A model generated the notes under the pieces. It was not told where the DNA came from. It worked only from the letters and a program-made list of their open reading frames with translations, and did not search any database. From Psammoneis japonica (taxonomy: Eukaryota), in assembly GCA_008632985.1 (NCBI GenBank), contig QPGO01000079.1:248001-312000 (forward strand): 64,000 bases of DNA, given 5' to 3'. Made by a program: the position numbers and the translations under genes. Of this stretch, positions 8,750-27,090 are shown piece by piece. How positions within the stretch are numbered: position 1 is the stretch's first letter; the number at the start of each line of letters is the position of its first letter.

Positions 8750-10930
8750 AAACCATGACCAACAATGCAGGGAACACTGAGAGTGTGGACAAACCACAGA
8801 AACCAGCTCAATGTGATGCTGGCAAGGAAGGTCTTGAAAAGTTTCCTTTGAATTCTTGGGGTGGAGCAGCAGAGGTTCTTGAGACAGCACAAGAAATGTG
8901 TGCAGCTTTGCAGCAATTCTCAAACAAAAGGACAGCAGTGGCAAGACAATCCTTGGTTTTGACACAGAGACCTTCTGTCTCAACTTCAGAGAAGGAGGTT
9001 TGGATCTAACAGCATTGGCTCAAGTTGCTGCTCAAGATGCAGTGGGTTTGTTTTGTGTCTGCATGCTTTGGTGGCATGCTTTTGCCCAGTTGATCCCTCA
9101 CTGGAACATGGCAATTTTCTCAAGTGCAGTGCAGGAGGCATCAGCTGGGATGTCACAGAGCTGCAAAAAGCCAAAGCATTCACCACAGGGGTTCACAAAG
9201 ATCACTGGCATCATGAGGTGGTGGTGGCACCTCAATGTCAAGACAGGAGGTTTGTGTGGTCTTGTCAGTTTCTTGCTGCATGGCTGGAAGCAGAGAACAA
9301 CAGAAAAATGGCTTGCACAAATCCTCCCAGCAATGTCGCCACCAAGTGAAGCAGACCAGAAGACAAGCTCAACAAAACATTGTCAAGAAAGACGTTTGTT
9401 GTCTTCTCCTGCTGTTTTTTGGAATGGGTGTGTTGAGGTTCTTGAAATGGCAAGGGTGACAAAGAAGGCCATGGATGAAATCATGAACAAAAAAGTGCAA
9501 GATTGCTGGAAGAAGACAACCCTTGGATTTGACACAGAGGTGGTCATTGCAAAAGAGGGGTGGCATCCACTGAGACACTGGCTCAGATTGTGGCTGAAGA
9601 CAAAGTGTGCCTTTGTTCAGGCTGTGGTCTTTCCAAGAAGCCCACTTTGACCCCCTTTGATTCTCTTGCTGGAGCAGCACAGCAATTTTCTCAAGAGTGG
9701 TGCAAACACATGCACAACCATGGCAGAGCTGAAAAAGTTGAAGCATTTGCTCCAAGCAGATTTGTTGCGATTGTTGACATTGCAAGCTGCCAGGTCAACA
9801 CATCAAGCCTCACAGTTTGTGGGGACTTGTTGGCATGTTGTTGAACAGTCAAAAAAGCAAGCAGGACTGGGAGAAAGCACACAGCATGGAACAAAAGGAA
9901 ATTTGACATGCTGCAACCAGCACATGGGTTGGCTGAGACTTGTGCACAAATGCATTTCAAGACCAGAGACAGAGCTGGGCCTGCCACCCACCATTTCTGA
10001 GATCGACTTCAAAGAAGTTGCAAGGAAGAAGGCAGCACAAGGAGGGATGAACAGCACAGACAAAGCAAAGGAAGAGGAGAAGAACAGAAAATGTTCCTCC
10101 CAGAACATCAGCAGCTCTGATGCCAGCACCAGCAAGAGAGCAAGCCAGAAAGGCATGCTTGGTGATGTGATGCTGGCACAAGAAAGCTGTTTGTGGTCTT
10201 TCTTCCATCTGGAATGGAAGAATTGAGGTTCTCAAAGCCACAGAGGCAATGAAGGCAGCTTTGGGAGAAATGCTGAAACAATGAGATTGTCCTGGCAAGA
10301 CAACTGTTGGATTTGACGCTGAGGTGGCTCTTGTGAAAGATGGGCAGCATCCACTGGCACTGGCTCAGATTGCAACTGGAACATTTGTCTCACATCTGCA
10401 AGCTTCTCAAGTCTCCTTTGATGTGCCATTGATTCCCTTGCTGAAGGCACAGGCATGTGCCAGGATTTGGCAGAGCCACAAGAAGTCAAGGCATGTGCCC
10501 CTTGGGAGCACTTGTGGATGTCACCTCCTGACATCACAACCTTTCAACTCAATGTCAAGGCACAAAGTTCGTGGGGTCTTGTTGGTGCACATTGTCAAAC
10601 AGACAGCTGTCTGACAGCTTTCAAAGAAGCAAATGGGGCTGAGAGAGAAAACACAAAGCCTGGAACCAGGAGAAATTTGCTGCACCAGGGCAGCCAATGC
10701 CTGGTGGCATGGTGGGGCAGGAAGTGTGCACTTGAAGAAGGCAAGCAACAAACTTGTGGCACAGACTGATGTTGAAAGCTGCCTGCCAGAGAGGGAAAAA
10801 GCTGGAGAAAAGAACACAGAAAAACAAAGAGAACAGGGAGGCACATGCAAACAAGACCATCACAACATTGACAGCACCACCTGCCCAGGGCAAAGACCAG
10901 CCAAAGCCAGGGCACTGCACTGAGGCAAAA
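8750..10930 (+). pseudogene. Heavily mutated copy of the 3'-5' exonuclease gene with remnants of three tandem exonuclease domains
   Basis: KTILGFDTET, KTTLGFDTEV and a third GFDAE remnant, plus linker ELGLPPTISEIDFKEVARKK matching ELGLPPVPDIDFKEVARRK of 24367-25539. Confidence 0.88.
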
Positions 10931-11169
10931 TGGAATGAGGCAGAGAGTTGACATGAATGGTGCTTCAGGAGCCACTGTGTTGGGGCATCTGGTGTGAGCG
11001 GGAAATGCAAGAGACCCAGAAGTGGATCCATTGAAGAGAGGATGCTTCAGATCCTGATGTGGTGGATCAGACAACACTTTAGAAATGAGTGCACATTTGT
11101 CACCAATCTCACCAACCTTCTTTTTAACTCACTCTTTGGAGCGAATCATCTGGTTTGCATGAAATGCAC

Positions 11170-13600
11170 TGTGGTGTCAGCAGGTGCCCCCATCACATTG
11201 TAAGATCGAAGTTTTTTGAGAGCTTCCAGGCAAACTGCAGCCACCACAGAGACCAGGACAGGTGTGATTAGCAGCACAGGAAGCCTTGGAGGACTCTCTT
11301 TTGGCACCATTGACCTGTCGGTTCAACGTTCACTCCAAAGAGTTGCAGGTGCTGCACTGGCGCACATGTGGCGCCAACCTCCTTTTTTGTCATCTGAGTC
11401 AGGAAACCTGCCCTTGGGAGCAGCAGAGGAGGAGGAGGAAGAATGAGTGCCAAAGGCCAAGGATGTGACCAAGGCAGGGGCAGCAGAGGACAGAAGTCTT
11501 GCTGTGACAAGAACAAGAAGACTGACCCCAAAAAAAGCTTTGAGCCAGAAATGAAGAATTTTCATCCGTCATCAATGAACAGCAACTCATGCAATGCAAT
11601 GTTTGAAGAAGTCAAGGAAAAGATTGTCAGCCAAGCACAGAAGGAGCATGATCAAGGCATGCATCTGGCAAGGTCCCCAGAAGACATGAAATGCATCATG
11701 TTCACCAGTGAGAAACCAGCACGAGCAATGGCATTGACGGCAGTGCCAGAAAGCTCAAAGGACAACCACAAGACCAAGAAAGATGAGAGGGCCAGAGAAG
11801 AAAGGCAACTGGAACATGAGCACAAGATCAAGTTGCATGACTGCAATGAGAAAGTCAAGAAGAAGCTCTTGAAGAAAACAAAAACACTGCCTTTGCAGCA
11901 ATCCCAGATGACTGCTGTGCCAAGATGATGAAGCAAAGAGTGCCGGCTGATTCCAGTTGTGCAGAGGGGCTCAGAGATGACCAGATCAACCTGCTGAGGC
12001 TGATCCAGCCACTCTTGTGTTTGACTCCATGAGGGGTTGACACCCGTTCCACATTCTCACCAAAAGTCCCTGAAGCACATTGTGGAAGTGAAGCAGTCAG
12101 AGGACAAGTTGCTGAATGACTGCCCGTTTGGATGCAAGAATCAATGGGATGCTGCAAGCAAAGGTCTCAGCAGTGAGATGTCAGATGGGCTCATCAAGAA
12201 TTCCAAGGAGTGCAAGGACTGCACTGAACCAGCAGATCAGAAAGTGCTGAAGGGCACTGCATTCAAGACATGGACAACACACCTGTCCATGGAAAACAAC
12301 AAGGACTGCTGCCACAAGAGTCTCAAGAAAAGCCTTGTGAGAGACTGCAGCCTGGGGAGGGATTTGCATCCAAAGACCCTCAAGAAGGCAATGAGTGTGT
12401 TGCTGAACCATCCAACAAGAGATGATTTTTCATGCAAGAGGCAGAGCAAGAAGAGTTGCAAGCATCAGAATGACAAGAAAGAGGACAAGGGTGATGACAA
12501 GCCCAAGAGCCCACAAGACCAGAGTCATGCACAGAGTGGCAAAGTGACGTGCCACTGTTGTCACAGAGCAAACCACAAGTCCCCAGATTGCAGATGCGAG
12601 GATGAGATCCCACAGAAGGACTGGCTCAAGAGCACCAGCAGGAAACTGGACACCAGGGGACAGAGTCATGCACAGAAAAACAAAGACACTTCATCAGCAA
12701 GCAGCAACAATGCCGGCGTTGGCACCTGCAGGTCAAGTTGATCTGTGAGCTCCACCAGCAGAAGAAATGTCACATGACATGGGTGTTCCAGTTAGATTGG
12801 CAAGCCAAACAAGGGCTGGAGATGAGTTTGAGCCAAGCTGATGCCAGCATTGAGTCAGATGAGATCATCCTTGACAATGATCTACCCCAGCAAGGCAGCA
12901 AGCCAGAGATTGGTGCACAATGTGTGACCAGCAAGGACCAAGATTGATCTTTCCACCAATGCAGGAGTGCACACTTCAGATGAAGACTGCAATGTGCCAG
13001 GATGGGGTGATGTGAAGCTTGGGCACAGAACATGACAACCAATGTCCTGAGCATCAAGGATGTGAAGAGCAAGTGCTGTGTCATGTGCAACAACCAAGTG
13101 GCGGATGAGTTCTGTCTGCTGGATGAGAAGACAGGCAAGCAGGTTGTGGTGTTCAAAGTTGACAACATCAGACTGTGTGCATTTTCACCAAGCCAGTGGT
13201 TCTTTGACCACTTGAAAGAACTCCAAGAAGATGAGTCACATGTGAGCATGCCATTGAAGGACAAGAAGGTTTTGAAGAAGACCAACATGTGAAGCACAAG
13301 AGTGCATCGGGGGAATTGTTGTTCCAACAGTGAAACAGAACATGAAAGGTCACACCAAACAAGAAGTGGCAAATGCTGAGGAAGCACTGAGACTGTGCTG
13401 CAAGGCTGAAATGCCAGTGTCAGGGATTTCAAGCCGTTCCTGCAATCCAATCAGGTGAAGAACCTGTCCATCCCACCTGAGGATGTGGACAGAATGGCGG
13501 CCATGTGGGGTCCACCAACGGATGTGCTCAAAGGCAAGACCAAGCATGCACACCATTTCCGTCCATGAGAGGAGCCATGTTGCCGATCAAGGCTAAAGTC
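11170..13600 (+). mobile_element. Truncated, degenerate Ty1/Copia (diatom CoDi-like) retrotransposon: gag, protease and start of the integrase region
   Basis: CHCCHRANHKSPDC knuckle (Cx2Cx4Hx4C), LGRDLHPKT, IILDN protease motif, NVLSIKDV, TVKQNMKGHTKQEVANA and WGPPTDVLKGKT. TGGTGTCAG at 11172 could be a mutated TGGTATCAG tRNA-Met primer site. Confidence 0.8.
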
Positions 13601-14182
13601 CAAGAAACATGACCATGTTTACAAAGCCTTGGACATGATTCTCCAACAGCACAACATGGCCCCATTTGAGATTCAAGGACATGCTGGCAGAAGTTGCAAA
13701 TGGCATGAACATCTGGAGCTTGTCTCTGCAAATGCCAAGGACCATGTTCCCAAAGTTGAGCAAAGCATTCAGACCACAAAGCAGTGAACCCATGCCACTG
13801 CACTCACTCTTGCACAAGTGTCGCACCCCCTCTGCCCCACTGTTGAAAATGTTGAGTCCAAGACTTGATGTGCTTGACATTGTGGAGGTGGGCAAAGATG
13901 AAAATGACTCCTGGGGCTCTCATCTAGAGCTCGTGTTCAGCCCTGAGTTTGGCAGCTGATTGTGTGTTGCCTCAACAAAGGTGTTGGATGCCTTCAATCC
14001 AGTCACTCCAAAAAAAGCAGTGCTCTTCTTGGCAGAGAAAAAATCAGCTGTGTCGGCATCCAGAAAATTTCTTCAGAGCAGTTGTCCCTGCCTGCCATCA
14101 GCGACATTGAAGTGCAGACACCAATGGAGCAAAGCCACAAGTTCCAGATGAAGCCACCACCACTGGCTTGAACCCAACCAAG

Positions 14183-14470
14183 AAAAGTCAAAGACAGGCT
14201 CAACAACTGGCACAGCTGAGTTGGAAAGTGATGACAGCAATCCATTTGTGGCAAATGGTGATTTTTTCTCTCCAGACACATGGCACTGTGCCAGCAAGTG
14301 CTTCTTGCTTGGCAGCGATGCAACAAACATGGTGCAACAAGAGGTCAAAGACAGGCTCAACAACCTGTGCAACTGAGCTGGAAAGCCAACATTCCATTTG
14401 TGGCAAGCATCAATTTTTCTCTGCCAGCATGCTGCGGTGCACCAGCAAGTGCTCCTTGCTTGGCGCCACC
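14183..14470 (+). repeat. Second array of the about 155-bp unit
   Basis: gtcaaagacaggctcaacaac at about 14187 and 14344; cttcttgcttggcagc shared with the 8.5-kb array. Confidence 0.75.
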
Positions 14471-15793
14471 AGCGGCGCAACAAATGTGGTGTGCACACTG
14501 TCAAATCCCTGTGTGCAGTCCCGCTCACATCCAATTGACCACCCATGTTTTCAAACTCATTCTTGCAAAAGATGCCTTCCTTCACAAGGGTGCACAATGA
14601 GTTCTTTGTCACAGGTCTGCAACCAAGTGAACATTTTCCAACACAGGACAGGTGTGTGTTGCTCTGTGCAATGTGCCACAATGCATGAATGATGCTCTGC
14701 TTGTGGTGCGCATTGCATCTGAGTGTCCATGCCAATTCACACATGCAGCATGTGCCACACACACTGCACCACCCCTGTGCAAGGGCTGCTGTGGGATGCA
14801 GGTGGGTGTGGTGTGTGATGACATCATCACATGCATTGAGTTGCAAATGTTCACATTTGCACTGACAATTGCATGTTGTCAAGCAACAGCTCCCATCCCA
14901 CAGCACCCCTGAATCTCTGACCACCAAACACTGACCCCAGCACTTGACCATTTTTCAGCCATTCTCACACCACCCAAACAACACATGTCACATCAACTCC
15001 ACCATGATGACATCTCCTTCTTTGTCACCAACAACTTGCCAGGACTCCATTCCTGCTGATGTTGTTGACATTGACACTGCTGCAAGAGGCAAGGATGTCG
15101 CTCCGGTTGTTGCACACCTTGTGCACCCCAAACAAGAATGTGCAAACCCGCCCACGCTGTCACTGCACCCATTGTGGAGGATGATGCCATTGCTCCGGTT
15201 GTCGTAACCCAGCCACAGACGCATTGCAATCCAGAAGATGTCAACATTTTTCTCCTGATGCAACACCTGGCACACAGTCTCAAGGCTGCAATTGGTCCAC
15301 CCTGGTCACAGCGTTGCCTGAACAACTTTCTTCTGAGCGTGTGCATCTGTTGTTGTGGCACTGCATTGGCTTGCCCTGTTTTCTGAGATGTTGCACACTG
15401 TGGCACAATGACGCAGTTTGCGGTGATCCAGTGTGGGGCAATGCCAACCACTGGAGCCACTTGGAGTGCTGGCAAAACAACAACTGCTTTCTCATTGTGC
15501 TCACTTTCTACAGTCGTCAAAAGCATTTCTGACAATTTCCCAAAACAAGGTGACCATCTTGCTTTTGTTCCCCTTGCGTTCACAGAGGCCCAAGCACTTG
15601 GTGCTTGCTGCCCAACCATCCTGTTCTGCTGGATCTTCAAAGCAGTGGGGAAACCCAGGACATGCTTGCAGAACTGTCTTGACAGGTGACTGGAAATTGT
15701 TTGTTGATCAAAAAGTGCTCGGCCCTTTCTCATCCGAGGAAGTAAACTGGGTGGTTGTCAGGCAGAAAATGTCTGGCGACAAGGCATGTCAGC

Positions 15794-16524
15794 TGACAGG
15801 ATTTGAACAGGATTTGGGTGCGTGCGAAATGTCGCGTGCTGTTTAGTTCACCGCGCACAGTTTTGTGCGCTCTTTAGTTCCGCGCGCACGCGTGCGATGC
15901 AGTTTGCTTTCAAGCCACACGGCTCACAAGAATGACAACAGCAGCCCGATCACACTGACTTGCACGTCTTTTGGCTCCTGTGACGGTCTCTGAGCGGAGA
16001 CTCATCTGCCATTTAGACAGCAGTGAGGAGTTGTTGTTTGAATTCTTGCCATTTGCCTTCAATTTCTGTCAGACATTGCGTGCGTGAGGCGATTGCCTCT
16101 GGTTGCCTTGAGTTCCACTTCATCAAAGGCTCCCGCAACCCTGCTGACATCCTCAGCAAGCATTGGGGTTGCTCCCAAATCTGGGACCTTCTCCGTCCCC
16201 TCATGTTTTGGAACTTCGTTCCATCCGAAGTCGAACCTGTTTCTGTGACTCCTCAAGCAAACTGGGGAGTGACAGGATTTGAACAGGATTTGGGTGCGCG
16301 CAAAAATGCACAGTTTTGTGTGCTCTTTAGTTCCGCGCACACGCGCGCGATGCAGTTTGCTTTTGAGCCACACGGCTCACAAGAATGACAACAGCAGCCC
16401 GATTGTGCCGACTTGCATGTCTTTCGGCTCCTGTGACGGTCTCTGAGTGGAGACTCATCTGCTGTTTAGACAGCAGCAAGGAGTTGTTGTTTGAATTCTT
16501 GCCGTTTGCCTTCAATTTCTGTCA
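15794..16524 (+). mobile_element. Miniature, internally deleted Copia element: two LTRs around an RNase H tail
   Basis: LTR1 15794-16071 and LTR2 16270-16524, both TGACAG...CTGTCA. 5-bp target-site duplication TCAGC (15789-15793, 16525-16529). Purine tract GGGGAG before LTR2. Internal part encodes HCVREAIASG...NPADILSKHWGCSQIWDLLRPLMFW. Confidence 0.93.
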
Positions 16525-17853
16525 TCAGCAAGAGAGATGTGGGCGGCAGTGAGGAGCAAGCTCAAGAGAGTGCACAACACATCAAATGCACCCATGCCAC
16601 TTGCTTCTCACTGGATTGACCATCATGCACAGTTGGTTTTGAGTTGATGAGAGCCAAAGCCCCTTGTCAGGATCAAAGATTTGTTTGCTTGCAAGTTGGA
16701 GCAATTCCCTGGTTGCACTGCTGGCATCAATGACAGGCTTGCCCAAGAGCTCAATCCGCCACAGCCACAGAAACATCCCCACCTGTCAAAACAGGTGCAG
16801 CAGTGTCAGCATTGGGTGCACCAATCCTGTGAAAGGCTGGCAATGTGCCAGCATTCATGACAGCATCTGTGGCAGGCTCTGCCACATCAGAAAAACAGCG
16901 TCAGTTTGCAGCACATCATTTTGGCTGTTTTTGGCATGAGAGAGGCAAAGCAACAACATTGTTGCCTCTTGCATCAGGTGCACTGGGAACAGCATCAGGT
17001 GTGGTGCTTGCGGGACATGGAGCCATGGCATTGTCATTCACAACAGAAGCTGTGGCAGGCACTGGAGTGTGAGAAACAGAGTGTCCGTGAATGAGCTCTA
17101 ATTTTGGAAGCAGCACCAGGTGCACGATGGCCACAGAAATGACATCACCTGATGCGCCAGTGTCATCATTGTCAGCATCAATGGGTGCCGCATTGTGGTG
17201 AGGTGTTGATGATGAATCACTTGACATCATCATGGTGGACTTCTGTTGGCGCCTTTTTTTGTGTGTTGCACGAGGAGAGAGGGAAAAATGGTCAAGTGCT
17301 GGCTGTCAGTGTTTGGTGGCCAGAGAATTGGGGGAGAGTGTGGATCAGGATTTTCCCTGATGCTCATGAGCATTTGTGTGCAAACAATGCAAAATTTCGT
17401 GAAATGACAGCATGCCACTCTTCCCTTGCACGCACATGTTTGACGGGTGGACAGACAAATTGCTGTGGCCGCCTTCAGAATCCGTTTTTCTTTGTCACGG
17501 CACAACCATGGGCCGCTCCGACAACACTGTCTTGTGAACGCCGCTGTTGAACAATTGCTCGAATCTACCCGACACTACTCACGCTCGTGACAACAAACAA
17601 GGGGAGCGTTTGTTGCATCAAGCAACATCCGGTTTTGGCCGCTTGCAATGGGCTCAGACTCCTCTTGCATTGACTGCGGTTTTTCTGTCTCGTGCCGCTC
17701 GCTCGCGGTCCAACCCATCACCTTCACTGGACGACTCATGTCTCCCTTTCCAATGCAAGCAGCTTGTCACCACTGGCGCTTGTGTTTGGCCTCTCCATCC
17801 TCTGCCTGCTGCAGTGGCATGCTTCCTGACACCTCGTGCTGCTGACAGCAACT

Positions 17854-20814
17854 GTGACAATCGAGAACGTGTGTGTTGATGTTCTGCACCGGCCAGAGTT
17901 TGACCTTGTTGATGACAAGCCGATGAACAATCAAGCAGAGCTGAGAGGAGAAAGTGTTGCAGTTGACATGTCCACACCACCGTGCAAGATTCTCATTGAT
18001 CCCACAGCTGCCAGGCAAGTCCATTCATCGCCCAAGATGCCTGTTGCCCAAGCTGCTAAACTGTTGGTGCGGCGACATGAGAGACTCTACAAAGCCAATG
18101 GTGTTGAAGCTGTGTGCACATTTGATGGCATGCACAATCCACTCAAATGGCAAACGGATGCCAAGCGCAAGGCCAGGAAAAAGCCAATTGAGGACAGAAT
18201 GTCATTTCTTCTTAAACAGAACAAACCTGAACAAGACCGCCTCGAGGTGCTGAACAAAAGGAAGAGTGTCGTTTGTCCTCAAGGAGACATCATGCTTCTG
18301 ATCAAGAAGGTGTTTGACCAAGAAGGAATGCCTCATGTTCAAGCTGCAGTTGAAGCTGAAGCACAGTGTGTGGAGATGCAAAATTCTGGGATCGTTGGAT
18401 GCATGGAATCCAAGGATGGTGACGTGCATGGGTGCAATTGCAAGAAATGGATCACAAACTTGAACCCCTTCAATGGCGACTGCTGCATCTTGGCAGCTTC
18501 TCAAATTGATGCTCGTGAGTGTGCGGGTGGTGGGCGCTGGAAGGATCACAAGCATGCTGCTCCTGCTTTTCAGAGCTGCGACTGCAATGTGAAGCCACAC
18601 AGTTTGCCGTTTGCCAAAACGATGGATGGATGCATCGCTGCCACAGATGAGAAAAAGCACCTCGAGGACATTGAGACCAATTTTAAGTGGCCGCCAAAAG
18701 CTCATGGTGCTGATGACAGAGGGCAGCCTGCAAAAGGATTCGCGTTGGAAGCCGGGCACACCATGAACATGTTCCTTGGTCACCCAGTCTTTTGGCTGTT
18801 GCCAAAGGAAGGTTTGGATAAAATTGATTTGTCAAAACTGCCAAGCAAGGATGCGCATGGCAGCATTGAGCTTGTGCCATCATGTGATTGCCCCCAATTT
18901 TCTGAGGATGGTGGCGAGGGATGGGGAAGATGCCTGGGATGCGACAAGTCACCGGCGGCTGTGCTCGGAGACATTCTACACAGCAATGGCATGGACAATT
19001 CTGACTGCTGTCCCTTGCTCTCAATGGAAATGTGGGCAAGGGGAGGAAAGCCACTTGAGCGAGAGGCAATTCCATGTCCTCAACACGACAACCGACACAT
19101 GATCAGCCACCTGGCAGAGCTCAACGTTGATCCAGACAAAGGCGGTGTTCCTCTCGGATTCCTTGATGTTGACCACATGAGAGCTTTTTTGCAGGAGCGG
19201 CGAAGCCTGCCACCATCTCATGCCGGGACCATCCCAAGTGCTCATCTTGAGGAAGCAGCGCGGGCCACTCCAGACAAAATGAAATGACCAAACGGTTTGC
19301 AGCTGGTGCCACGATCCTTGTCAGAGTCATGAAAAGATTCGGGAACTTTTTCTGTTGAGCAGGTGATGCTGCCTCCAGCAGGGCAACAGCGGCAGTGGGA
19401 TCATGAAAATGTCATGCAAAGAGTGCGAGGAGCAATGAAAATTGATGACAAATCCATCAACAACATGACACATCGGAAGAAGTGAGGTGGCGCAAGGTGC
19501 TGTGCTTGCCGACGCATTGATGGTGGCAACTGCAATGTCAACACATTCTCTGTGACAGAGGGAAGGCACAGGGAGACAAGACGCAGCGTTGTTCTCTTTC
19601 GCATGCTTGTGACCCCATCCCAGAAGTCGGACCCATGTTGGGCACATGTCGCATTTGACAAGGAGACAGGAGACTGTGTTCCATGTCCTGGATCGAGGTG
19701 TGAGTGCCCCGTGGTGGATGGGTGTTCCCACACCCTTGCTTTTCTTGGAGGTCCGATTTGCTTGGCGCAAACGAATGTCGAATGGACCGTGGACACTCTT
19801 GCTGAAGCAATGCTGGAGTCCATCAAGCCACACCAGTCATGTCCCATCCCTTTTGAGGCTGGAGCTTTTGAGTCTAGCAAAGTAGAGAAGGAGGTAAAAG
19901 CTGAGGGAAGAGCCACTCTGGCATTCCATGAGACCCATGGTTCCAGAGAAAGGGACAACGAAGACGAAAATGTTGAGACGGCGGCACAAAATGAAGAAGA
20001 TGATGATGGAACTCCCACAACACAAATGTGCGCCAACACAGAGGTCATGGTTGCAAAGGCTAAAAAGAGGGCCGAACTGACAGAGACTGAGCGAGATTTT
20101 GCTCATTGGGTTGCATTGGACAAGATGCGAGCCATGAACAAGGAAAAGCTTGAAGGCAAGGGCGGGCCAAATGAGTCTCTCGACTCAAAGCATGAACAAT
20201 TAGAGATGCTTGAGTGCCTGCATCAAGAAGTGAAGGTGGGAAACCTGCCACGGATGCTCCTCTCTCACTGCGCAGAAATTTCAAAGCCTTGCCATGATTG
20301 TTTGTTGAAGCAGCTGCCGCACGTGAAGGACCCATCCACAGTCCGCCAAAAACACCGTCTGCCAAAAATTGAAGAAGACGATCAAGCATGCGGCGACAAG
20401 AATTTCAACAATGCATCTTGCTTGCATCCCAATGGCAATGAGATGATCTGCCCAAAACACCTTGTTGGGAAGCACTGTGACATTGCTGAGGTGCGTGAGG
20501 ATGAAGGAATCAAATCGCTTCGATGGTCAAGTGAAGGTGTCTTCACGTGAGCAATTGATGATGCCCATGTTCAAGATGTCACAACCAGCGGTCATTTCCC
20601 TTGTCTGCATCATGCTGTCAACTGCTCTCAAGGGCGCACCAATCTCTGTGCCCCATGCCACGCCCCTGATCCAAACCTGCATCCAGCTGACAAATCTCAC
20701 TTTGTCGACTTTGAAGAAAAGAAATTGGCAGCTCGAAAGAGGAAAGAAAAAGCTCGGGATAACAGAGCAAAGAAGAAGGAGGCAGATTTACAAAATGTCA
20801 CAAAGGAAAATTAG
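17854..20814 (+). pseudogene. Transposon ORF: XPG/EXO1-family nuclease + SWIM finger + putative C-terminal half of a DDE transposase
   Basis: One reading frame broken only by a few TGA codons. Motifs: LRGESVAVDMS, TFDGMHNPLK, AAVEAEAQC, SKDGD, SCDC (GCDY-like), RCECPVVDGCSH, then RLPKI..GDKNF..PNGN..P..L.G..EV..D..I..LRWSSEGVF. Ends in TAG. Probable start ATG now reads GTG (ctATG->ctGTG). Confidence 0.78.
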
Positions 20815-20884
20815 TCCAGCTGACTGCCTCTCGTGTTTTGTGTTGCATGTGTGTTTGCTTCTTCTATTGTCAACACTGACATGG

Positions 20885-22560
20885 TTAGTGTGGCTCGTTG
20901 GCAAACAAAATTTGGTTTGCATCAACTGTTCCCCACAATTCTGTCAATCTGTTCTCAGGGCATCGTCCAAAGCAGAGCCCTGTGTGCTCAAACACTGAAC
21001 CAGTGGGAGCCAACCATGTCATTGTAAGCCCGTCACTCGAATCCGTCTTCTCATTGTACAGCAACCGATCAAGAGCAGCACAGACTCGAACTGTGTCTGT
21101 CACAAACATTTTGCCATCCACGACCGCCGCGATTTTTTCATGGCCTTTCTCCCCAAATGTTTTTGGCACCGCAGTTGTGATGTAAGAGGTGCATTGAGGT
21201 GGATTGCTTGTGGTTGAGTGTGGAACGTTGTCACTTGATGCAACGTCTTCTGGCAGGCAATCGTCCATGAAGTCCAAATCGAGCATGGACATGTAAAGCC
21301 CTGCTTTTCCAAGGCAAGGCATCCACATCTGTGCTGTCCGTGGAAACCAGCTGTTGCCTTCACGATGCCATGTCGACCCCAAAGTTGCCACCCGACAATC
21401 CCGGTGCACCGTCATTGTGCATGTCAGCACCTCTTTGACCGCCGTGAATTGCTCCTTTCCCTTGCCGTGTCTTTCCTCTACATCAGGAAACCAAACCTTT
21501 GTGATGCAGCAGATGGCTTCCTCAAATGTCCCCAATCCCCAAAGATGCTTTGCCATTTTGTCATGATCCTCGTGCCACTTGCCGCTCATCAGATTCTCCC
21601 TGCTAAGTCCACCCATCGCTTCAATCTCATCCTCCCGCTCCAAGCACACTTTCAACTTTTGAGCCTTGTCTGCTGGCTCTGATGACAGTTTGTCAGCTTT
21701 TTTCAATGCAATTTGAAGCAACTCATTCACATGCTCAAGCTCTGCTCGCAAGCTGACATTCTCCTTTCCTGCTCTATCTGGATCAAATGCGGGGCGTGCC
21801 TCTGTGCTGCTGCAACTTTTCGGACCATTGGCGGTGGACGAGGCAAGTCTCTTGCATTGTCATCCTCATCAAGACATGCTCCAATGGGGTCCAATGATGT
21901 GCGGGCTGACTTTGCATCTCGTGGATAATCTTTCTTGGTGCAGTTCAGTGCCGGGCAGCATGACATTTTTCCATTGCTCCGATCTCTTGCGTCACTTTTG
22001 TGAAAGCACAACAATTCTCCCGTCTCACAGTCCACATTTTCCAAGGGGCCTTTGTTGTCCTCTTTTAAAATGGCAGGATGGAAATGATTGAATCCAATGC
22101 ATTCACAATTGCCAGTGGGTTCCGGTGGCACACAAGAGTTCCCAACAAGATGCCGACACGCCACGACTCTCATGTCATTGTCACTGACACTGCCACCTCC
22201 ACATGGCCTTCTTTTGCTGGCACATGGAAGGTGGCAGCAACCACACCTTTTTTGTCACCAGCATCAATGAAGTCCTTTGTGCTTTGCTTGCACTCTTCCT
22301 TGTCACGGCAGATGCATGGGCAGAGCCGCACACCTTTGCAATGGTTTCTCTGGGGATCTCGCTTGCGTTTGGGAGGCGACGTCGCGCGGACGATTCTTCC
22401 GTCATTGCTGCAGCAGGCAGAGGAATGCCAAAGCTTGTAGATGTGCCAGTGGTGACGGGCTCCTGTCGACGGCAACGGAGACACACGTCTTCGAGTGGGT
22501 GTGATGGGCCGAGCTGTGACGGGAGCTGAAGAGAAGAAAAATGGGTTGATGCCGGTGCTG
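20885..22560 (-). pseudogene. Transposon ORF: THAP-like finger + coiled coil/HTH + N-terminal half of a DDE_Tnp_4-type transposase (frameshifted)
   Basis: CPCICRDKEEC..FHVP..HFHP, then AVVDGKMFVTDTVR..LYNEKT..LTMTWLAPTGSVFEHTGLCFGRCPENRLTELWG. Ends in TAA soon after, before the second catalytic Asp. Start position uncertain. Confidence 0.72.
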
Positions 22561-22889
22561 CCTGTGCCCGTGGAAAGGGCACACAACAAAGGATGTGACT
22601 TGCCGGATGTAAGGCTCTTACAGCAGTTTCTGTTGTTAATAGCGCCAGTGGTGTCAGGGAGAGTAAGCTTCTTGTTGAACAGTGGCAATGTCAAAAGAGG
22701 AGGTCGTCAGAGGCAATTCAGCGTCCGGGTCACGTCTGTGCATGCCGGCACATGCCATCGCCGGCCGGCCAGGCGCCAGGACTACTGTACGTACGTCAAC
22801 CGCATGACCGCGAGTGCGTCGGGCGGGCGTCGATCGACAGGGTTTTCACGGAAAAATTCAAGTCAGAAGTATAAAAAACATACCAGAGC

Positions 22890-23058
22890 CTACGCCACTA
22901 GTGGCGTAGAATGGTTCAGGGTGTACACAAATTTTGTACCACAGTGGCGTACGTGATTTTGATATAAGATTCTACATGCGCCTAGTGGCGTAGACCCAGT
23001 ACAAAAGCAATAAATTTTTGAAGTTTTGTGGCGTACAAAGTCAGTATGTTGTGGCGTA
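22890..23058. repeat. Subterminal GTGGCGTA repeat array with a perfect 20-bp palindrome
   Basis: CTACGCCACTAGTGGCGTAG at 22890-22909; GTGGCGTA at 22901, 22944, 22985, 23028 and 23051. Confidence 0.9.
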
Positions 23059-24366
23059 GATTCGACATCAACAAGACTTCGCGCAACACTCGCAACAACC
23101 AAGACAACAGAAAACCGCTCGCAAAATCTCGCTCCCACTTTACACGTTGCAGCTGATGTGGTGTTGTTCATTCGTCTCACTCGTTTTCATCGTGGAACCT
23201 CCTGATGACACAGGGTGTCTTTCAGGTGTGTGCATCGGTCTGATTGCCCCCCCCTCTTTGGGCAAGAATGGGGTGTGTGGTTTGCTTCTTGAAGACACCA
23301 GACCAGAGCCACAAGGAGCTTGCAGTGGAGAGCTGGCAAGCAAAGCACTGGGCTGCGCCACAAGGCACTGGCTGATGGGACAGCATTGGGCAAGCACAAC
23401 TGCAAGCATTTTCCTGAGGGCACTTTGCACCACATGTGACAAAGCCAGAAACATGGACTGAGAAACACAGACAGAGCCAGGTTTTGCTCAGCTGGCCACC
23501 CAGAATTCAAGCAGGGGTGCAGCCGGAATGAAGAAGGCTGCAGGTCAATTTGAGGTCCCAGTGGGAACTTGCTTTGCATGTTTGTTAATAGCCTGCTGCA
23601 GAAGCTGTGGCTGCACTGGAAACCCAAAGGTGGCGGTGCGTGATGGGGTGGATCTTGCAAATTCTCTCAAGATTTTGTGATGCATGGGGCCAAAATTTGG
23701 GTGCAGCATCCACAGATGCTTTGGGAGAGATGCTGTGAATTCGTCAAGGCAGGCACTTCTGACAGCATGGGTGGGGAAGGCCAGTGCTTGTTGCCAGGGA
23801 TCTTTGTGAAGATCTTTTAAAGAGGATGACACTGCGTTCTCTCACTTGGAAACTTCAGAGAATTGTTTGGACACAGCGTGGGGCCAAACCCGCCAAAGTG
23901 TGCACTGAATTTTGGAGAACAAAGAAGACACAGATCAGCGGCAGTGGCCACCAAGCTGGCAGGGCAAGGCTTGGAAAACAAGCTGCCCAAAAAGCCATGA
24001 TGGGCTGGCAGCAAAGCACTCCTCACAAAAGATGCCGCTGTCAAGCTGTGCCACAGACTGCACAACTCCACAGTTCTCCAGCACGCTGTGGGAGCTTTGC
24101 TGCCAAGCATGTAAAACCGCAGCACCTCAAGTCACAGACAAGCTGCTTTGCAGGCAGAAGCCCAGCCAAGGGCCGCAAGTTGACAGCCCCACAGCGTCTT
24201 CTCTTTTTCTCCTTTTTCCTTCTTTTCCTCTCTCTCTTCTCCTTTTCTCCTTTTCAGTTTATTCTTCTGGGCCGCCTCCGGCGGCCACCTCTTTCATTCT
24301 TCCCACATGCCGAAATCTCGTTGAAGGTCGACAGAAGAATTAGAAGACAGAAAATCGGAACAAACC

Positions 24367-25539
24367 ATGGCAGACAACACAGGGGATGAGCCGCAGAAAC
24401 CAGCGCAACGTGACATTAGCAAGGAAGATCTTGCAAAGCTCCCTTTGATTTCTTGGAATGGAGCGGTGGAGGTTCTCGAGACGGCGCAAGAAATGCATGC
24501 AGCTGTGCGGAGAATTCTCAAACAAAAAGACAGCAACAGCAAGACAATCCTCGGCTTTGACACAGAGACCCGCCCAAACTTTAGAAAAGGAGGTTGGAAT
24601 CCGACGGCGTTGGTTCAGGTTGCTACTCATGACACGGTGTACTTGTTCCGTATTTGTAAGCTTTGGCGGCATACTTTCACGCCGTTGATCCCTCTGCTAG
24701 AGCACAGTGATTTTCTCAAGTGCGGTGTGGGCATCAGCCAGGACGTCACGGAGCTACAAAAAGTCGAATCATTCACGCCACGGGGATTCATGGAGATTGT
24801 TGATTTTACGAGGTGGCAGCTCAACATCAAGCCGGGAGGTTTACGTAGTCTCGTCGGTTTCTTGCTGCATGGCCGGCTCTCCAAAGCGGCTCAAATGAGC
24901 AATTGGGCCAAGGACAAGCTCGAACCAAAAGAGATTCAGTATGCAGCAACTGATGCGTGGGTTGGACGAGAATTGTACGTAAAAGCAACTCAAGAGCAGG
25001 CGGAACTTGGTTTGCCGCCCGTTCCTGATATTGATTTCAAAGAAGTTGCACGGAGAAAAGCAGAGAGAGCGAAGAAGAAAGCAGAGGAGGCAAAGGAAGC
25101 GGAGAAAAACAGAAATATTGCTTCCATGAAAGTTGCCAACAAGAATGTCACTACAGTAGGTACCGAGAATAGGCCAGAAAGACCGGCTCAACGAGACCTA
25201 AGCAATATTCATGGTCTTCCATCCATTTCAAGGGCGAAGAGGAAAGCAGAGGATGCAAACGAAGCGAAGAACAATAGAAGAATTGCTTCTCCGAACATTG
25301 CCAGCAAGAATGCCACTACCAAGAGCGGGACAGAAAGACCGTCTCAACGAAATGTCAGCAAGAAAGCTATTCGTCATCTTCCATCCATTCCAAGGGAGAA
25401 CTTTGCCAGCAAGGATGCCACTGCCATGAGCGGGCCAGAAAGACCTTCTCAACGAAACGTTAGCAAGAAAGATATTCGTGGTGTTCGATCCATTTCAAGG
25501 TATAAGAACAAAGCAGAGAATGCAAAGGATGCGAAATAA
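24367..25539 (+). CDS. DEDDy 3'-5' exonuclease (WRN-exo/RNase D-like) with a repetitive basic tail
   Basis: ILGFDTETRP (Exo I), KCGVGISQD (Exo II), QMSNW...QYAATDAW (Exo III); 390-aa uninterrupted ORF. Confidence 0.9.
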   Translation: MADNTGDEPQKPAQRDISKEDLAKLPLISWNGAVEVLETAQEMHAAVRRILKQKDSNSKTILGFDTETRPNFRKGGWNPTALVQVATHDTVYLFRICKLWRHTFTPLIPLLEHSDFLKCGVGISQDVTELQKVESFTPRGFMEIVDFTRWQLNIKPGGLRSLVGFLLHGRLSKAAQMSNWAKDKLEPKEIQYAATDAWVGRELYVKATQEQAELGLPPVPDIDFKEVARRKAERAKKKAEEAKEAEKNRNIASMKVANKNVTTVGTENRPERPAQRDLSNIHGLPSISRAKRKAEDANEAKNNRRIASPNIASKNATTKSGTERPSQRNVSKKAIRHLPSIPRENFASKDATAMSGPERPSQRNVSKKDIRGVRSISRYKNKAENAKDAK

Positions 25540-25559
25540 ACAACAGAGAAATTGCTTCC

Positions 25560-26237
25560 ACAAACGTTGCCAGCAATGTCACTACCAAGAGCAGACCAGA
25601 AAGACCGGCTTCGACGAGTCATTGGCAAGAAAGGTATTAGCGATCTTCCTTCGATTTCTTGGAATGGACGTGTATAGTTCTTGAAACCGCAAGGCCAATG
25701 AAGGAGGCTGTGGATAAAATCCTGAAAGACAAAGACAACCGGAACAAGACAATCGTTGGATTTGTCACTGAGACGGCTATCGTGAAAGAGGGGCGGCATC
25801 CACCGGCGCTAGTTCAGATTGCATCTGAAGATACAGTGTACCTATTTCGCATCTGCAAGCTTCCCAAGTCTACTTTGACGCCATTGATCCCCTTGCTAGA
25901 GAACAGCGATATTCTCAAATGAGGTATACGCCAGAACGTGGCGGAGCTACAAAAAATCGAAGCCTATACACCTCGGGAATTCGTGCATATTACGGACATT
26001 ACCTCCTGTCAACTCAACATCAAGCCACAAAGCTTGCGGGGTCTTGTTGGCGTGTTGTTGAACAGACAGCTGTCTGATGGGTTTCAACGGAACAAATGGG
26101 ATTGGGAGAAAACACAAAGCCTGGAACCAGGGGAAGTTCGCCACACGGCAACAAAGGCCTGGGCAGGGCTGGAAGTGCACATCAAGGCAAGCGACGAATT
26201 GTCGCACAGGTTGATGTCGAGGAGGACTCACCAGTGA
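25560..26237 (+). pseudogene. Second, disrupted exonuclease domain downstream of the intact ORF
   Basis: KTIVGFVTET (catalytic D->V), PALVQIA, LIPLLENSDILK*, SLRGLVG, RHTATKAW; stops and frameshifts. Confidence 0.85.
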
Positions 26238-27090
26238 GTGAAAAGCCGGCGGAGAATCGCGGATGAAAGAACACGGAAAACAAAGAGAACAGGGGAGACA
26301 CAAACAAGACTGTCACAAAATCGACAGTGCTGCTTGCCCAGGGCAAGGATCAAAGTCAGAATGCTATGTGGAGGAAAAATGAAAAGGGGCGGAGAGGTGA
26401 CAAGAATGATGCCACAGGATCCAACGGGTCGCCAGCAAGAAAGGCGGCCAAGGTTGCTGACGCACACCTGCAAAGCGTGTGCTGATTTACTGCATTGTGC
26501 AAAAACGACGAGGTGCGACTTGGAGGGTTGCATGTTGGCACATTGCACTACATAATGGCCGACAGGCGTCTCTCTATTGCCATGGATCGAAAGCCTGTTG
26601 AGAAGACTCCGCCAGCTGTGTCACATTGGATTGCTGCGTCGTGAGACAGTGTAGATTGCACAGACAATTTCATAGTTCGACATGATGCATGCTAAGCATT
26701 TCATGTTCCACTCGATACAGTATGGTGCCCTTCTTGAAATGAAAGCGTGTTCCATTCTTGTCTTTACCAGGCCCCTTGCAGCGATGCCGCTTCATGGTGC
26801 TTCTCCTTAGCAGGCAAAGTTGAAGTACATAGAGAGGTTTGGTTTGTGGGAGCTCGAGCCGATGAAGTAGATGTGGTATAGATTCTACTTACGATCATTT
26901 GCGTAGCATCGTACTGATGACCGCCATGGCGAAGCACAAAAAAACCCCGCGAAAGCTGGAACGAACGCAGGCGCAGCCGTGCGACCCAAGAGCAAAGCAG
27001 CGGTGTGCGGAACGATATTCTAAAACATTTCTGTTGCTGCAGAGTGGAGATATACCTTTGCAACTCTCGTTTCATAAGTTGTTTTTGTCA

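What the first reader, a model, noticed from the sequence alone, without database searches (positions are those of the whole stretch)
17854..19800. Transposon carries an XPG/FEN1/EXO1-family nuclease in place of the usual YqaJ exonuclease
Known: ISL2EU-type elements pair a THAP-DDE transposase with a second ORF containing a SWIM finger and a YqaJ (lambda-exonuclease-like) domain. Seen: here the SWIM finger (CECPVVDGCSH) is preceded by XPG N- and I-region motifs, and I see no YqaJ motif. Inference: replacement by an unrelated 5' nuclease, suggesting 5' end processing is needed for transposition and possibly defining a distinct lineage.
Basis: partly seen in the sequence, partly recalled or inferred. 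Interest (0 to 1): 0.75.

Follow-up and report, generated by a model that had tools for sequence, protein, structure and literature searches.

The report
Dead transposon with XPG-SWIM nuclease gene
This is a mutated, dead copy of a two-gene jumping element whose transposase travels with its own flap-nuclease-like enzyme, and in this lineage the nuclease gene also encodes half of the transposase's catalytic core.

Summary
Window 17830-20712 (+) is one reading frame with XPG-N, XPG-I and a CxCx5CxH SWIM-like motif, and it has no YqaJ match.

It is not a host EXO1. It sits between degenerate ~300-nt inverted repeats (17516-17814 and 22408-22712), convergent with a divergent DDE_Tnp_4/HTH_Tnp_4 (PHIS-type) transposase gene. 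Relatives of the two genes are neighbours in 13 of 31 metagenome loci. The source DNA run holds many diverged copies.

This copy is dead:
- four in-frame TGA stops in the nuclease gene;
- at least two frameshifts in the transposase gene;
- near-total TpA loss (Tyr 0.1%).

No THAP domain was found, and no ISL2EU-type termini or target-site duplication could be read. I therefore file it at PHIS superfamily level, not as ISL2EU.

A new point is that the transposase's second Asp and its Glu lie at the C-terminal end of the XPG-SWIM frame, on the opposite strand from the gene carrying the first Asp. Intact relatives show this split form (P0010, L029), a permuted single-protein form (L018) and an ordinary collinear form (L006, L017).

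This scan reported the XPG-SWIM/PHIS pairing before, in Ostreococcus genomes. My paper searches found no description of it.

The parts
17516..17814 (.). Left arm of a degenerate ~300-nt inverted repeat (TIR-like). The outer boundary is uncertain by some bases.
   Evidence: Local alignment of 17516-17814 with the reverse complement of 22408-22712. It includes a perfect 17-nt core, 17798-17814 against 22408-22424.
17830..20712 (+). XPG-SWIM-(DDE C-terminal half) pseudogene. One frame with four in-frame TGA stops (19285, 19330, 19483, 20548) and no ATG at the aligned N-terminus.
   Evidence: Translation. Alignment along its whole length with P0010 and other 813-1030 aa relatives. At 20548 other copies in run X1 read C, giving CGA instead of TGA.
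17938..18480 (+). XPG-N (17938-18183) and XPG-I (18325-18480) nuclease core, with the acidic residues kept.
   Evidence: Pfam, PDB phmmer hits to EXO1 and FEN1, motif coordinates.
19177..19203 (+). Possible HeH/SAP-like motif (MRAFLQERR...). Weakly supported.
   Evidence: Sub-threshold Pfam Ish1/HeH hits in relatives P0050, P0068 and the L006 XPG ORF (E 0.001-0.003). The window row ends at these columns in alignment A3. No Pfam hit in the window itself.
19699..19731 (+). SWIM-like zinc motif CECPVVDGCSH.
   Evidence: Conserved as CxCx6CxH in relatives. Pfam SWIM E 6.9e-4, 19.5 bits against a cutoff of 19.6, in the L008 relative only.
20344..20709 (+). Second half of the DDE_Tnp_4 catalytic domain. 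The second Asp is in GDKNF (20392-20406) and the Glu in WSSEGVF (20524-20544). It is in frame with XPG-SWIM.
   Evidence: tblastn E 9e-14 on the + strand only. Alignment A6 has D, F, PN.N, P and E invariant in 7 of 7 rows. Coordinates.
20888..22706 (-). Transposase N-part pseudogene, in three frame segments (22706-22173, 22254-21730, 21859-20888), so at least two frameshifts. It contains a Cys cluster CPCICRDKEEC (22290-22322), a region aligned to the coiled-coil and HTH part of relatives, and the first catalytic Asp in VVDGKMF (21104-21124). A stop follows directly after 20888.
   Evidence: P0001 is 61% identical over 301 residues and 45% over 130. Alignment A2. Relatives hit HTH_Tnp_4 and DDE_Tnp_4. 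Coordinates.
22408..22712 (.). Right arm of the inverted repeat. Contigs of other copies diverge from the window just after 22706.
   Evidence: Loose ends at 22706 in run X1.

Best explanation
Window ~17516-22712 is a dead, hypermutated copy of a ~5.2-kb cut-and-paste DNA transposon of the PHIS (IS5/Harbinger/ISL2EU-like, DDE_Tnp_4) kind. The element carries two convergent genes.

- Gene 1 (minus strand) encodes a Cys cluster, a coiled coil, an HTH_Tnp_4-type helix-turn-helix and the first third of the RNase-H-like catalytic domain, with the first Asp. It then stops.
- Gene 2 (plus strand) encodes a divergent FEN1/EXO1-type XPG nuclease, a SWIM-like zinc module and, at its C-terminus, the rest of the catalytic domain, with the second Asp and the Glu.

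Shown: the domain identities, the gene order, the conservation of this split in intact relatives, the linkage of the two genes across lineages, the multicopy state in the source genome, and the decay of this copy.

Inferred mechanism: the two proteins must assemble to form one active DDE site, which makes an obligate heteromeric transposase. The DDE site would cut one strand at each element end. The tethered XPG nuclease, a structure-specific 5' nuclease, would cut or trim the complementary strand. This is comparable to TnsA working beside TnsB in Tn7 (recalled from general knowledge), and to the role guessed for YqaJ in ISL2EU.

Rough odds:
- transposon with an XPG-SWIM partner gene: 0.9
- the split architecture is real and under selection: 0.75
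- heteromeric reconstitution with the XPG domain cutting the second strand: about 0.45
For: XPG identity:
- Pfam XPG_I E 1.4e-9. EXO1 and FEN1 are the best PDB matches.
- An exhaustive HMMER search found 149 proteins at E<=1e-3, the best at 2.7e-36.
- 36 of the 40 I scanned have XPG_I.
- 13 of the 149 carry a CxCxnCxH-type motif beyond residue 300 (regex).

Not EXO1:
- In a 92-row tree, the 26-row clade holding the rows named 'Rad2 nuclease' and 'Exonuclease 1' has SH-aLRT 99 and excludes the window.
- The window sits in the 50-row half that holds 15 of the 16 SWIM-motif rows.

Transposase identity:
- P0001 family, 9 proteins.
- HTH_Tnp_4: P0157 27.8 bits against a cutoff of 27.
- DDE_Tnp_4: E 3.7e-5 in L006 and 2.1e-5 in L017 (23.9 and 24.7 bits against 24.8).

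Linkage:
- 12 of 31 loci have P0001-family hits beside the XPG-SWIM gene.
- L023 adds one more through its D2-E segment.
- After collapsing near-identical loci these are about 9 lineages.

Mobility:
- L018 has 98-nt TIRs, 95% alike, bounding 5.16 kb.
- The window has ~300-nt degenerate inverted repeats.
- 365 contig pieces of run X1 lie on 17000-23200. Of these, 288 are under 99% alike, and the differences are mostly transitions.

Split catalytic domain:
- The D2-E segment is on the + strand, in frame with XPG-SWIM, in the window, L028/L029 and P0010.
- Four near-identical ORFs of 1027-1030 aa carry this tail.
- Seven P0001-family proteins, 29-62% identical to the first row, end at the same point after LVELWG. 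The window and L029 frames stop there too.
- No D2-E-like sequence on the minus strand of the window or L029 at E<=1e-3.
- L018 has one 1171-aa ORF reading XPG-SWIM-D2/E-D1. Its tail matches DDE_Tnp_4 profile positions 72-137 at E 0.0031.
- L006 and L017 have the ordinary collinear order.

Decay of this copy:
- Four in-frame TGA stops and at least two frameshifts.
- TA observed/expected 0.05-0.12.
- Tyr 0.1% against 1.6-3.7% in relatives.
- 10 of the 16 aligned P0001 Tyr positions are Cys in the window.
Against: - All DDE_Tnp_4 matches fall just below Pfam's gathering score, and the window's own frames give no DDE, HTH or SWIM Pfam hit.
- No target-site duplication or clean terminus could be read in the window, L006 or L018.
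- No structural support for a reconstituted or permuted RNase H fold. Both AlphaFold models were of low confidence, pLDDT 42 and 49.
- Some XPG-SWIM genes have no transposase on their contig. L001/L003 (P0050) are examples, with contigs of 4.6 and 9.1 kb.
- The branch separating the SWIM-bearing half from the EXO1 half has only SH-aLRT 81. The window's own branch is long (1.87), and one SWIM-motif row (P0126) falls in the other half.
- The tree contains only hits to this query. It has no labelled FEN1, GEN1 or XPG references.
- The cutting roles assigned to the two nucleases are inference only.
- No whole genome is held for this window, so I could not look for the host's own EXO1.
Confidence: 0.75

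Rival explanations
1. The XPG-SWIM gene is a true transposon passenger or accessory gene, but the split and permuted DDE arrangements are rearranged, non-functional copies. Active elements would always carry a collinear transposase.
For: Collinear forms exist in L006, L017, L030 and L023. P0007 and L021/L022 look like deletion or rearrangement derivatives. Contigs of other copies in run X1 show internal deletions and one opposite-strand joint. No structural support for reassembly of the halves.
Against: Split-type ORFs are intact in several separate lineages. Four P0010-cluster ORFs of 1027-1030 aa differ from P0010 by 3, 4 and 35 residues. L029 has an intact 489-aa minus ORF and a plus ORF ending in D2-E. 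Seven P0001-family proteins at 29-62% identity all end at the same point, and the tail TVDP..I.FA is conserved among the five closest. The catalytic D and E are invariant in the plus-strand tails.
Confidence: 0.15
2. The nuclease is the host's EXO1, FEN1 or GEN1 repair gene, or a decayed paralogue of it, and lies next to a transposon by chance.
For: The best PDB matches are EXO1 and FEN1. The XPG acidic residues are kept.
Against: It is excluded from the EXO1 clade. It has the family-specific SWIM region and the DDE tail. Its relatives neighbour the same transposase family in 13 of 31 loci. It lies between inverted repeats and is multicopy in run X1.
Confidence: 0.02
3. It is a member of the AcademX lineage, the Academ-superfamily transposons that encode a nuclease.
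For: A transposon-borne second nuclease is already described for AcademX. PMC10045372 (passage read) says that the Academ lineages AcademH and AcademX encode a helicase and a nuclease. I could not read the primary paper.
Against: The transposase here matches HTH_Tnp_4 and DDE_Tnp_4, the PHIS families. The ancestral-looking form has two separate genes (L006, L017).
Confidence: 0.03
4. The gene pair is a domesticated host module derived from a transposon and is no longer mobile.
For: XPG-SWIM genes without a transposase on their contig exist (L001/L003). Long intact ORFs persist in many lineages.
Against: L018 has near-perfect 98-nt TIRs. The source run holds many diverged copies. The window copy itself is decayed, which fits a repeat better than a maintained host gene.
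Confidence: 0.05

Closest known systems
ISL2EU group of the PHIS superfamily (Han et al. 2015, PMC4482050, passages read; Han et al. 2014, PMC4122938, search listing only)
   Same: A two-gene cut-and-paste element. It has a DDE_Tnp_4-type transposase with an HTH, and a second gene encoding a nuclease joined to a DNA- or zinc-binding module.
   Different: The second gene has an XPG/FEN1-type nuclease instead of YqaJ. No THAP domain was detected. The L018 termini start TTGTGG, not GG, and no AT target duplication could be read. In the window's lineage the second gene also carries the second Asp and the Glu of the transposase.
PIF/Harbinger elements (PHIS superfamily)
   Same: A DDE_Tnp_4 transposase and a requirement for a second element-encoded protein. 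In the L018 form the DNA-binding part (Zn cluster plus HTH) is a separate protein from the catalytic part. This resembles the Harbinger division of labour, which I recall from general knowledge.
   Different: The partner is a nuclease with a SWIM-like motif. PMC4482050 (passage) reports a Myb/SANT protein as the usual partner. I did not test for the 3-bp target duplication.
AcademX (Academ superfamily)
   Same: A eukaryotic DNA transposon that encodes a second nuclease beside the transposase. PMC10045372 (passage) states that AcademX encodes a nuclease. That it is of XPG type is recalled.
   Different: The transposase family differs: PHIS-type HTH_Tnp_4/DDE_Tnp_4 here. The basic layout is two genes. 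A SWIM-like module is present.
Tn7 TnsA/TnsB heteromeric transposase (recalled from general knowledge, not looked up here)
   Same: A working analogy: a DDE enzyme and a second, unrelated nuclease each cut one strand at the element ends.
   Different: The system is bacterial. TnsA is a restriction-enzyme-like nuclease, not an XPG nuclease. The DDE domain of TnsB is not split.
Eukaryotic EXO1/FEN1 (XPG/Rad2 family)
   Same: XPG-N and XPG-I regions with the conserved acidic residues. EXO1 and FEN1 are the best PDB matches.
   Different: A separate clade. The XPG_I match is cut at profile position 53 of 89 in the window and several relatives. There is a long family-specific middle region, a SWIM-like module, a transposon context and, in some lineages, a DDE tail.

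Membership tests
XPG/Rad2 (FEN1/EXO1) nuclease superfamily | XPG-I region | tested here: met
   Pfam XPG_I E 1.4e-9, 38.7 bits against 24.9 in the window ORF, but only profile positions 1-53 of 89. 36 of 40 scanned relatives hit XPG_I.
XPG/Rad2 (FEN1/EXO1) nuclease superfamily | XPG-N region | tested here: inconclusive
   The window scores 19.9 bits, below the cutoff of 22. Many relatives pass, for example P0003 at 39.1 bits and P0013 at 39.9 bits.
XPG/Rad2 (FEN1/EXO1) nuclease superfamily | Conserved acidic active-site residues | tested here: met
   The columns nearly invariant in A3 (D34, D86, E164, D185, D187, D243 in P0050 numbering) are all Asp or Glu in the window row. The EAEAQ motif is also kept. 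That these correspond to the FEN1 catalytic set is recalled.
XPG/Rad2 (FEN1/EXO1) nuclease superfamily | Orthology to EXO1 | tested here: not met
   The EXO1 clade (26 rows, SH-aLRT 99, with rows named 'Rad2 nuclease' and 'Exonuclease 1') excludes the window.
SWIM zinc finger (PF04434) | CxCxnCxH signature | tested here: met
   CECPVVDGCSH at 19699-19731. Aligned with CxCx6CxH in relatives.
SWIM zinc finger (PF04434) | Profile match | tested here: inconclusive
   No hit in the window or in the 40 relatives at E<=0.01. The L008 relative scores 19.5 bits against a cutoff of 19.6, E 6.9e-4.
PHIS superfamily (DDE_Tnp_4 transposases) | DDE_Tnp_4 catalytic domain | tested here: inconclusive
   L006 scores 23.9 bits and L017 24.7 bits against a cutoff of 24.8, E 2-4e-5. 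The L018 tail gives E 0.0031. No hit in the window frames. DGK, DRGF and E columns are conserved.
PHIS superfamily (DDE_Tnp_4 transposases) | HTH_Tnp_4 upstream of the DDE domain | tested here: met
   P0157 scores 27.8 bits against 27. P0156 scores 25.2 bits. The L018 minus ORF gives E 3.5e-4. These are relatives of the window gene, not the window copy itself.
ISL2EU group | THAP domain in the transposase | tested here: not met
   No Pfam THAP hit at E<=1 or looser in the window frames, P0001, P0151-P0157, or the L002, L018, L029 and L030 ORFs, nor at E<=0.1 in the L006 and L017 ORFs. A different Cys cluster (CIC..EC) is conserved instead.
ISL2EU group | Second ORF with a YqaJ exonuclease domain | tested here: not met
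   No YqaJ or Viral_alk_exo hit in the window frames or in the 40 relatives. An XPG nuclease is present instead.
ISL2EU group | 2-bp (AT) target duplication and TIRs starting GG (PMC4482050, passage) | tested here: inconclusive
   The L018 TIRs read TTGTGGCTGG..., and no duplication could be read at the flanks. The L006 and window ends are unclear. No empty sites were available.
PIF/Harbinger | Myb/SANT-like second ORF | tested here: not met
   No Myb/SANT Pfam hit in any of the 19 scanned frame segments of the element or in the relatives' ORFs.
AcademX | Academ-type transposase joined to the nuclease | not testable with these tools
   No Academ profile or reference sequence was available, and the primary paper is not held. 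The transposase here matches PHIS families instead.

The most novel reading that the evidence does not exclude
In one clade of these elements the RNase-H-fold DDE active site is built from two polypeptides encoded on opposite strands. The DNA-binding protein supplies the first Asp. The XPG-SWIM nuclease supplies the second Asp and the Glu. The result would be an obligate heteromeric transposase that physically couples a flap-type 5' nuclease to the strand-transfer site. A sister lineage carries the same pieces as a circularly permuted domain within a single 1171-aa protein. If true, this would be a natural split and a natural permutation of a DDE transposase core, and a eukaryotic counterpart of two-nuclease transposases.
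Probability: 0.45. Interest if true: 0.85.

Novelty: new variant of a known kind. Interest (0 to 1): 0.68.

Why it matters
How PHIS-type (IS5/Harbinger/ISL2EU) transposases cut the second DNA strand is not settled. PMC4482050 (passage) calls the role of their second ORFs unknown.

A lineage that always carries a flap-type 5' nuclease argues that a second nuclease is part of the transposition chemistry. The case is stronger where the transposase's own active site is divided between the two proteins. This gives a directly testable system: two genes and seven or more point mutants.

A naturally split and a naturally permuted RNase-H-fold catalytic core would also bear on how DDE enzymes assemble, and on engineering controllable transposases.

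The window copy itself adds two things. It shows the family in a genome that earlier notes call diatom-like. It also gives a clear example of TpA/CpG-depleting hypermutation of repeats, with Tyr turned into Cys.

Tried and rejected
- Complex prediction on the D1 half (P0001 residues 290-428) with the D2-E half (P0010 residues 838-972) gave no answer. The score was 0.00, my alignments were not used, and the partner's own fold was uncertain. This is no evidence either way.
- AlphaFold2 of P0050 with a 4-row alignment gave pLDDT 42. AlphaFold2 of the L018 D2-E/D1 tail with 13 rows gave pLDDT 49. Both are too poor to use, so I ran no fold search.
- The search for homologous proteins with the window XPG ORF found none among 5643 candidates. 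The word index probably fails on the mutated sequence, because the exhaustive search did find relatives.
- Protein atlas: no usable hit for the minus-strand ORF. The SWIM ORF gave only sub-0.9 leads, to animal SWIM/YqaJ clusters.
- PDB phmmer with the L006 transposase found nothing meaningful; the best E was 0.063, to an unrelated protein.
- Inverted repeats flanking the D2-E segment, which would be expected for an invertible switch: only short pairs of 10-21 nt at 71-92% were found. I do not take these as support.
- The window holds no second copy of the element.
- No whole genome is held for this window.
- Target duplications and exact termini could not be read in the window, L006 or L018.
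- The search for related loci failed on alignments that were too diverse. With the narrower A8 alignment, viral contigs gave no relative.
- Sequencing runs: one DNA holder, and no RNA holder listed.
- Papers: Kojima 2020 (PMC7165386) is not held. Searches for ISL2EU+XPG, Academ+XPG+Kolobok, Harbinger+XPG+transposase, 'XPG nuclease'+transposase (3 unrelated papers) and 'DDE transposase'+'circular permutation' found no description. The library lacks most subscription journals and Repbase Reports.
Full report
**Setting**

The window is eukaryotic and no whole genome is held for it. Earlier notes of this scan call it diatom-like; I did not test that.

From about 6 kb to 22.8 kb the DNA is almost free of TpA (observed/expected 0.02-0.12). 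It is poor in CpG (0.07-0.55) and rich in TG/CA (1.5-2.0). With TAA and TAG nearly absent, long open frames appear on all six frames. An open frame here therefore says nothing about coding. Every claim below rests on similarity to other sequences.

**The observation**

The frame 17830-19287 (+) matches Pfam XPG_I at E 1.4e-9 (38.7 bits, profile positions 1-53 of 89). It matches XPG_N weakly at E 0.001 (19.9 bits, under the cutoff of 22). Its best solved relatives by sequence are human EXO1 (4.7e-5) and FEN1 (5.9e-5).

The same frame runs on through three TGA codons (19285, 19330, 19483) into 19486-20550. That segment holds CECPVVDGCSH at 19699-19731. None of the 19 frame segments I scanned across 17538-22706 gives a YqaJ match at E up to 10.

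I first suspected the Cys motif was a mutation artefact. In the neighbouring gene the relative P0001 reads YEY where the window reads CEC. Ten of the 16 aligned Tyr positions of P0001 are Cys in the window. The window's XPG-SWIM frames have 0.1% Tyr and 5.0% Cys, against 1.6-3.7% Tyr and 1.6-2.2% Cys in relatives.

Intact relatives settle the point. They carry CxCx6CxH at the aligned position: P0010 CQCPVGRYFCSH, P0025 CDCPNGYLFCSH, P0050 CDCPNGWLFCSH and P0021 CQCKNGRVFCSH. The motif is a feature of the family. Pfam's SWIM model is only borderline, and only in one relative (L008, 19.5 bits against 19.6).

**A family of XPG-SWIM proteins, distinct from EXO1**

The word-indexed search found nothing. 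The exhaustive HMMER search found 149 proteins at E<=1e-3, 21 at <=1e-10, and a best hit of 2.7e-36.

- 36 of the 40 proteins I scanned have XPG_I. None has SWIM, YqaJ or DDE hits at E<=0.01.
- A regular expression finds a CxCxnCxH-type motif beyond residue 300 in 13 of the 149.
- The window frames align along the whole length of the 813-1030 aa members. The nearly invariant acidic columns (D34, D86, E164, D185, D187, D243 in P0050 numbering) are kept in the window row.

I built a 92-row tree from hits of 300 aa or more, plus the window and three loci (P0072 dropped as an unrelated repeat protein). IQ-TREE quick mode was used.

- The clade holding the rows that their sources name 'Rad2 nuclease' and 'Exonuclease 1' has 26 rows and SH-aLRT 99. 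It excludes the window.
- The window lies in the other half (50 rows) with 15 of the 16 SWIM-motif rows. Its nearest rows by path are P0006, P0007, P0009, P0002 and P0043; P0010, L008 and L018 share its 12-row subclade.
- Weak points: the branch dividing the two halves has only SH-aLRT 81. The window's own branch is long (1.87). One SWIM-motif row (P0126) falls in the other half. There are no labelled FEN1, GEN1 or XPG references.

**The neighbouring gene is a PHIS-type transposase**

The minus-strand frames 22706-22173, 22254-21730 and 21859-20888 have no Pfam hit. They match P0001 at 61% over 301 residues and 45% over 130. Three frames mean at least two frameshifts.

Searching with P0001 gave nine proteins.

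- P0157 reaches HTH_Tnp_4 (27.8 bits against 27), and P0156 nearly does (25.2 bits).
- In metagenome loci the uninterrupted homologues L006:7744-9675(-) and L017:4508-5341(-) match DDE_Tnp_4 at E 3.7e-5 and 2.1e-5. These scores (23.9 and 24.7 bits) are just under the cutoff of 24.8.
- No THAP hit appeared in any of them. A different Cys cluster (CIC..EC) is conserved near the N-terminus.

I therefore place the transposase in the PHIS assemblage and not specifically in ISL2EU.

**Linkage and mobility**

A scan of JGI metagenome contigs with four XPG-SWIM proteins returned 31 loci.

- P0001-family proteins hit 12 of the 31 next to the XPG-SWIM gene: L002, L006, L008, L015, L017, L018, L019, L021, L022, L028, L029 and L030.
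- L023 adds a thirteenth through its DDE C-terminal segment.
- Many of the others are contigs of 1-2.5 kb.
- After collapsing near-identical loci, the linked loci represent about nine lineages.
- Gene order varies: head-to-head in L002 and L006, and convergent, as in the window, in L015, L017, L018, L021, L029 and L030.

L018 has 98-nt terminal inverted repeats, 95% alike, bounding 5.16 kb. L029 is a 5.56-kb contig with 578-nt perfect inverted ends. The window has a degenerate inverted repeat of about 300 nt, 17516-17814 against 22712-22408, enclosing 5.2 kb.

On the one public DNA run that holds the stretch, 365 contig pieces lie on 17000-23200 at 80% identity or more. The identity classes are 77 at 99+, 63 at 95-99, 104 at 90-95 and 121 under 90. 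Differences are mostly transitions: 139-159 per type against 15-33 per transversion type. The family is therefore multicopy and diverged in this genome.

Six contigs read C at 20548, making CGA where the window has TGA. This marks that stop as a CpG-to-TpG mutation of this copy. I could not read a target-site duplication anywhere.

**The catalytic domain is divided between the two genes**

All seven aligned P0001-family proteins (29-62% identical to the first row) end at the same place. That place is about 60-75 residues after the DGK motif that holds the first Asp, and 0-16 residues past LVELWG. The window frame (stop directly after 20888) and the L029 frame end there too.

The collinear L006 and L017 proteins continue from that point with ...MLSDRGF... 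and ...RYTCEVAF..., the second Asp and the Glu.

In the window that continuation is on the other strand. tblastn places it at 20344-20709 (+), E 9e-14, in frame with XPG-SWIM. Nothing comparable lies on the minus strand. The motifs are GDKNF (20392-20406) and WSSEGVF (20524-20544).

- The same tail ends the intact 1030-aa P0010 (CDRGFANT...CEVRYGSE). Three more cluster members of 1027-1030 aa differ from P0010 by 3, 4 and 35 residues.
- The same tail also ends the plus ORF of L029 (LGDKGF...AVETVFSR). There the minus ORF of 489 aa stops about 100 nt away, after the first-Asp region.
- In the seven-row alignment of these tails with the collinear versions, D, F, PN.N, P and E are invariant.

L018/L019 show a third state. 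One 1171-aa plus ORF reads XPG, SWIM, then D2-E, then the D1 region (LLMDGKDCVTDTVR...LVEYWGG). The 513-aa minus ORF keeps only the Cys cluster, coiled coil and HTH. The L018 tail matches DDE_Tnp_4 profile positions 72-137 at E 0.0031. The minus ORF matches HTH_Tnp_4 at E 3.5e-4.

L008 shows XPG-SWIM followed directly by the D1 region, at the contig edge. The window, P0010, L008 and L018 share one 12-row subclade of the XPG tree (SH-aLRT 85). The collinear L006 lies in another subclade. This fits a single lineage in which pieces of the catalytic domain moved onto the nuclease gene.

I found no inverted repeats that would suggest a DNA switch.

**How it most likely works**

Shown: the architecture, its conservation in intact ORFs, and the linkage of the two genes.

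Inferred: the two proteins assemble so that the first Asp (gene 1) and the second Asp and Glu (gene 2 tail) form one RNase-H-like site. The DDE site nicks and transfers one strand. The attached XPG domain, a structure-specific 5' nuclease by family, cuts or trims the other strand. The SWIM-like module, and a possible HeH-like motif (sub-threshold hits in relatives), would bind DNA or the partner protein.

The analogy with Tn7 TnsA/TnsB is recalled from general knowledge. Neither structure model reached a usable confidence.

**State of this copy**

It is dead. The nuclease gene has four in-frame TGA stops and no ATG at the aligned N-terminus. The transposase gene has at least two frameshifts. 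Tyr codons are almost entirely lost.

**Comparison with what is known**

- ISL2EU elements are described as a transposase with DDE, HTH and THAP domains plus a second ORF with a YqaJ domain, AT target duplications and GG termini (PMC4482050, passages). Here the THAP and YqaJ tests fail, and the termini are inconclusive.
- AcademX elements encode a nuclease beside an Academ transposase (PMC10045372, passage). That the nuclease is of XPG type is recalled, because the primary paper is not held. The transposase family here is different.
- This scan has already reported XPG-SWIM genes paired with Harbinger/ISL2EU-type transposases in Ostreococcus-type genomes. I treat those notes as leads. My linkage and domain results agree with them independently, on other DNA.
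- My paper searches found no description of the pairing. The library lacks most subscription journals and Repbase Reports.

**Verdict**

The locus is a decayed member of a PHIS-type transposon group that carries an XPG-SWIM nuclease. As far as I could search, this group is undescribed in print. In this lineage the DDE catalytic domain is split between the two genes.

Noticed in passing
window 6000-22800 and 23000-24250: Extreme TpA depletion (observed/expected 0.02-0.12) with CpG depletion and TG/CA excess, ending near the element's right end. A short stretch of normal composition lies at about 22500-23000. Copies in run X1 differ mainly by transitions.
   Followed up: partly
window 24367-26350 and 10041-10900: The ORF at 24367-25539 has a 3'-5' exonuclease domain (DNA_pol_A_exo1, E 1e-15) followed by internal 105-165-nt repeats. 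A second partial copy follows at 25600-26350. Segments at 10041-10900 are 79-82% alike, at a constant offset of about 15450 nt, and they lie inside the hypermutated zone.
   Followed up: no
window 14906-15098 and 16956-17334: Several inverted-repeat pairs bound about 2.4 kb directly left of the element. They include a perfect 20-nt pair, 14937-14956 against 17283-17302, and a 44-nt match at 93%. This may be another, non-autonomous element. A 217-nt direct repeat (15855-16071 and 16308-16524, 92%) lies inside it.
   Followed up: no
L001, L003, L004 (P0050 lineage): An intact 835-aa XPG-SWIM gene with no transposase on contigs of 4.6 and 9.1 kb. Its closest relative (L002, 87% nt) has the transposase head-to-head. 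L003 ends in a 94-nt inverted copy of 6301-6394, which may be an assembly fold-back. The gene could be a non-autonomous or domesticated copy.
   Followed up: partly
L021/L022 and P0007: These look like deletion or rearrangement derivatives. In L021/L022 an XPG N-terminal part abuts the transposase N-part. In P0007 an XPG N-terminal 400 aa is fused in frame to the D1 region.
   Followed up: no
window 22796-23200: Summed contig depth in run X1 rises to about 1500-1700 here, against 90-500 over the element. This suggests a much more abundant repeat just to the right of the element.
   Followed up: no
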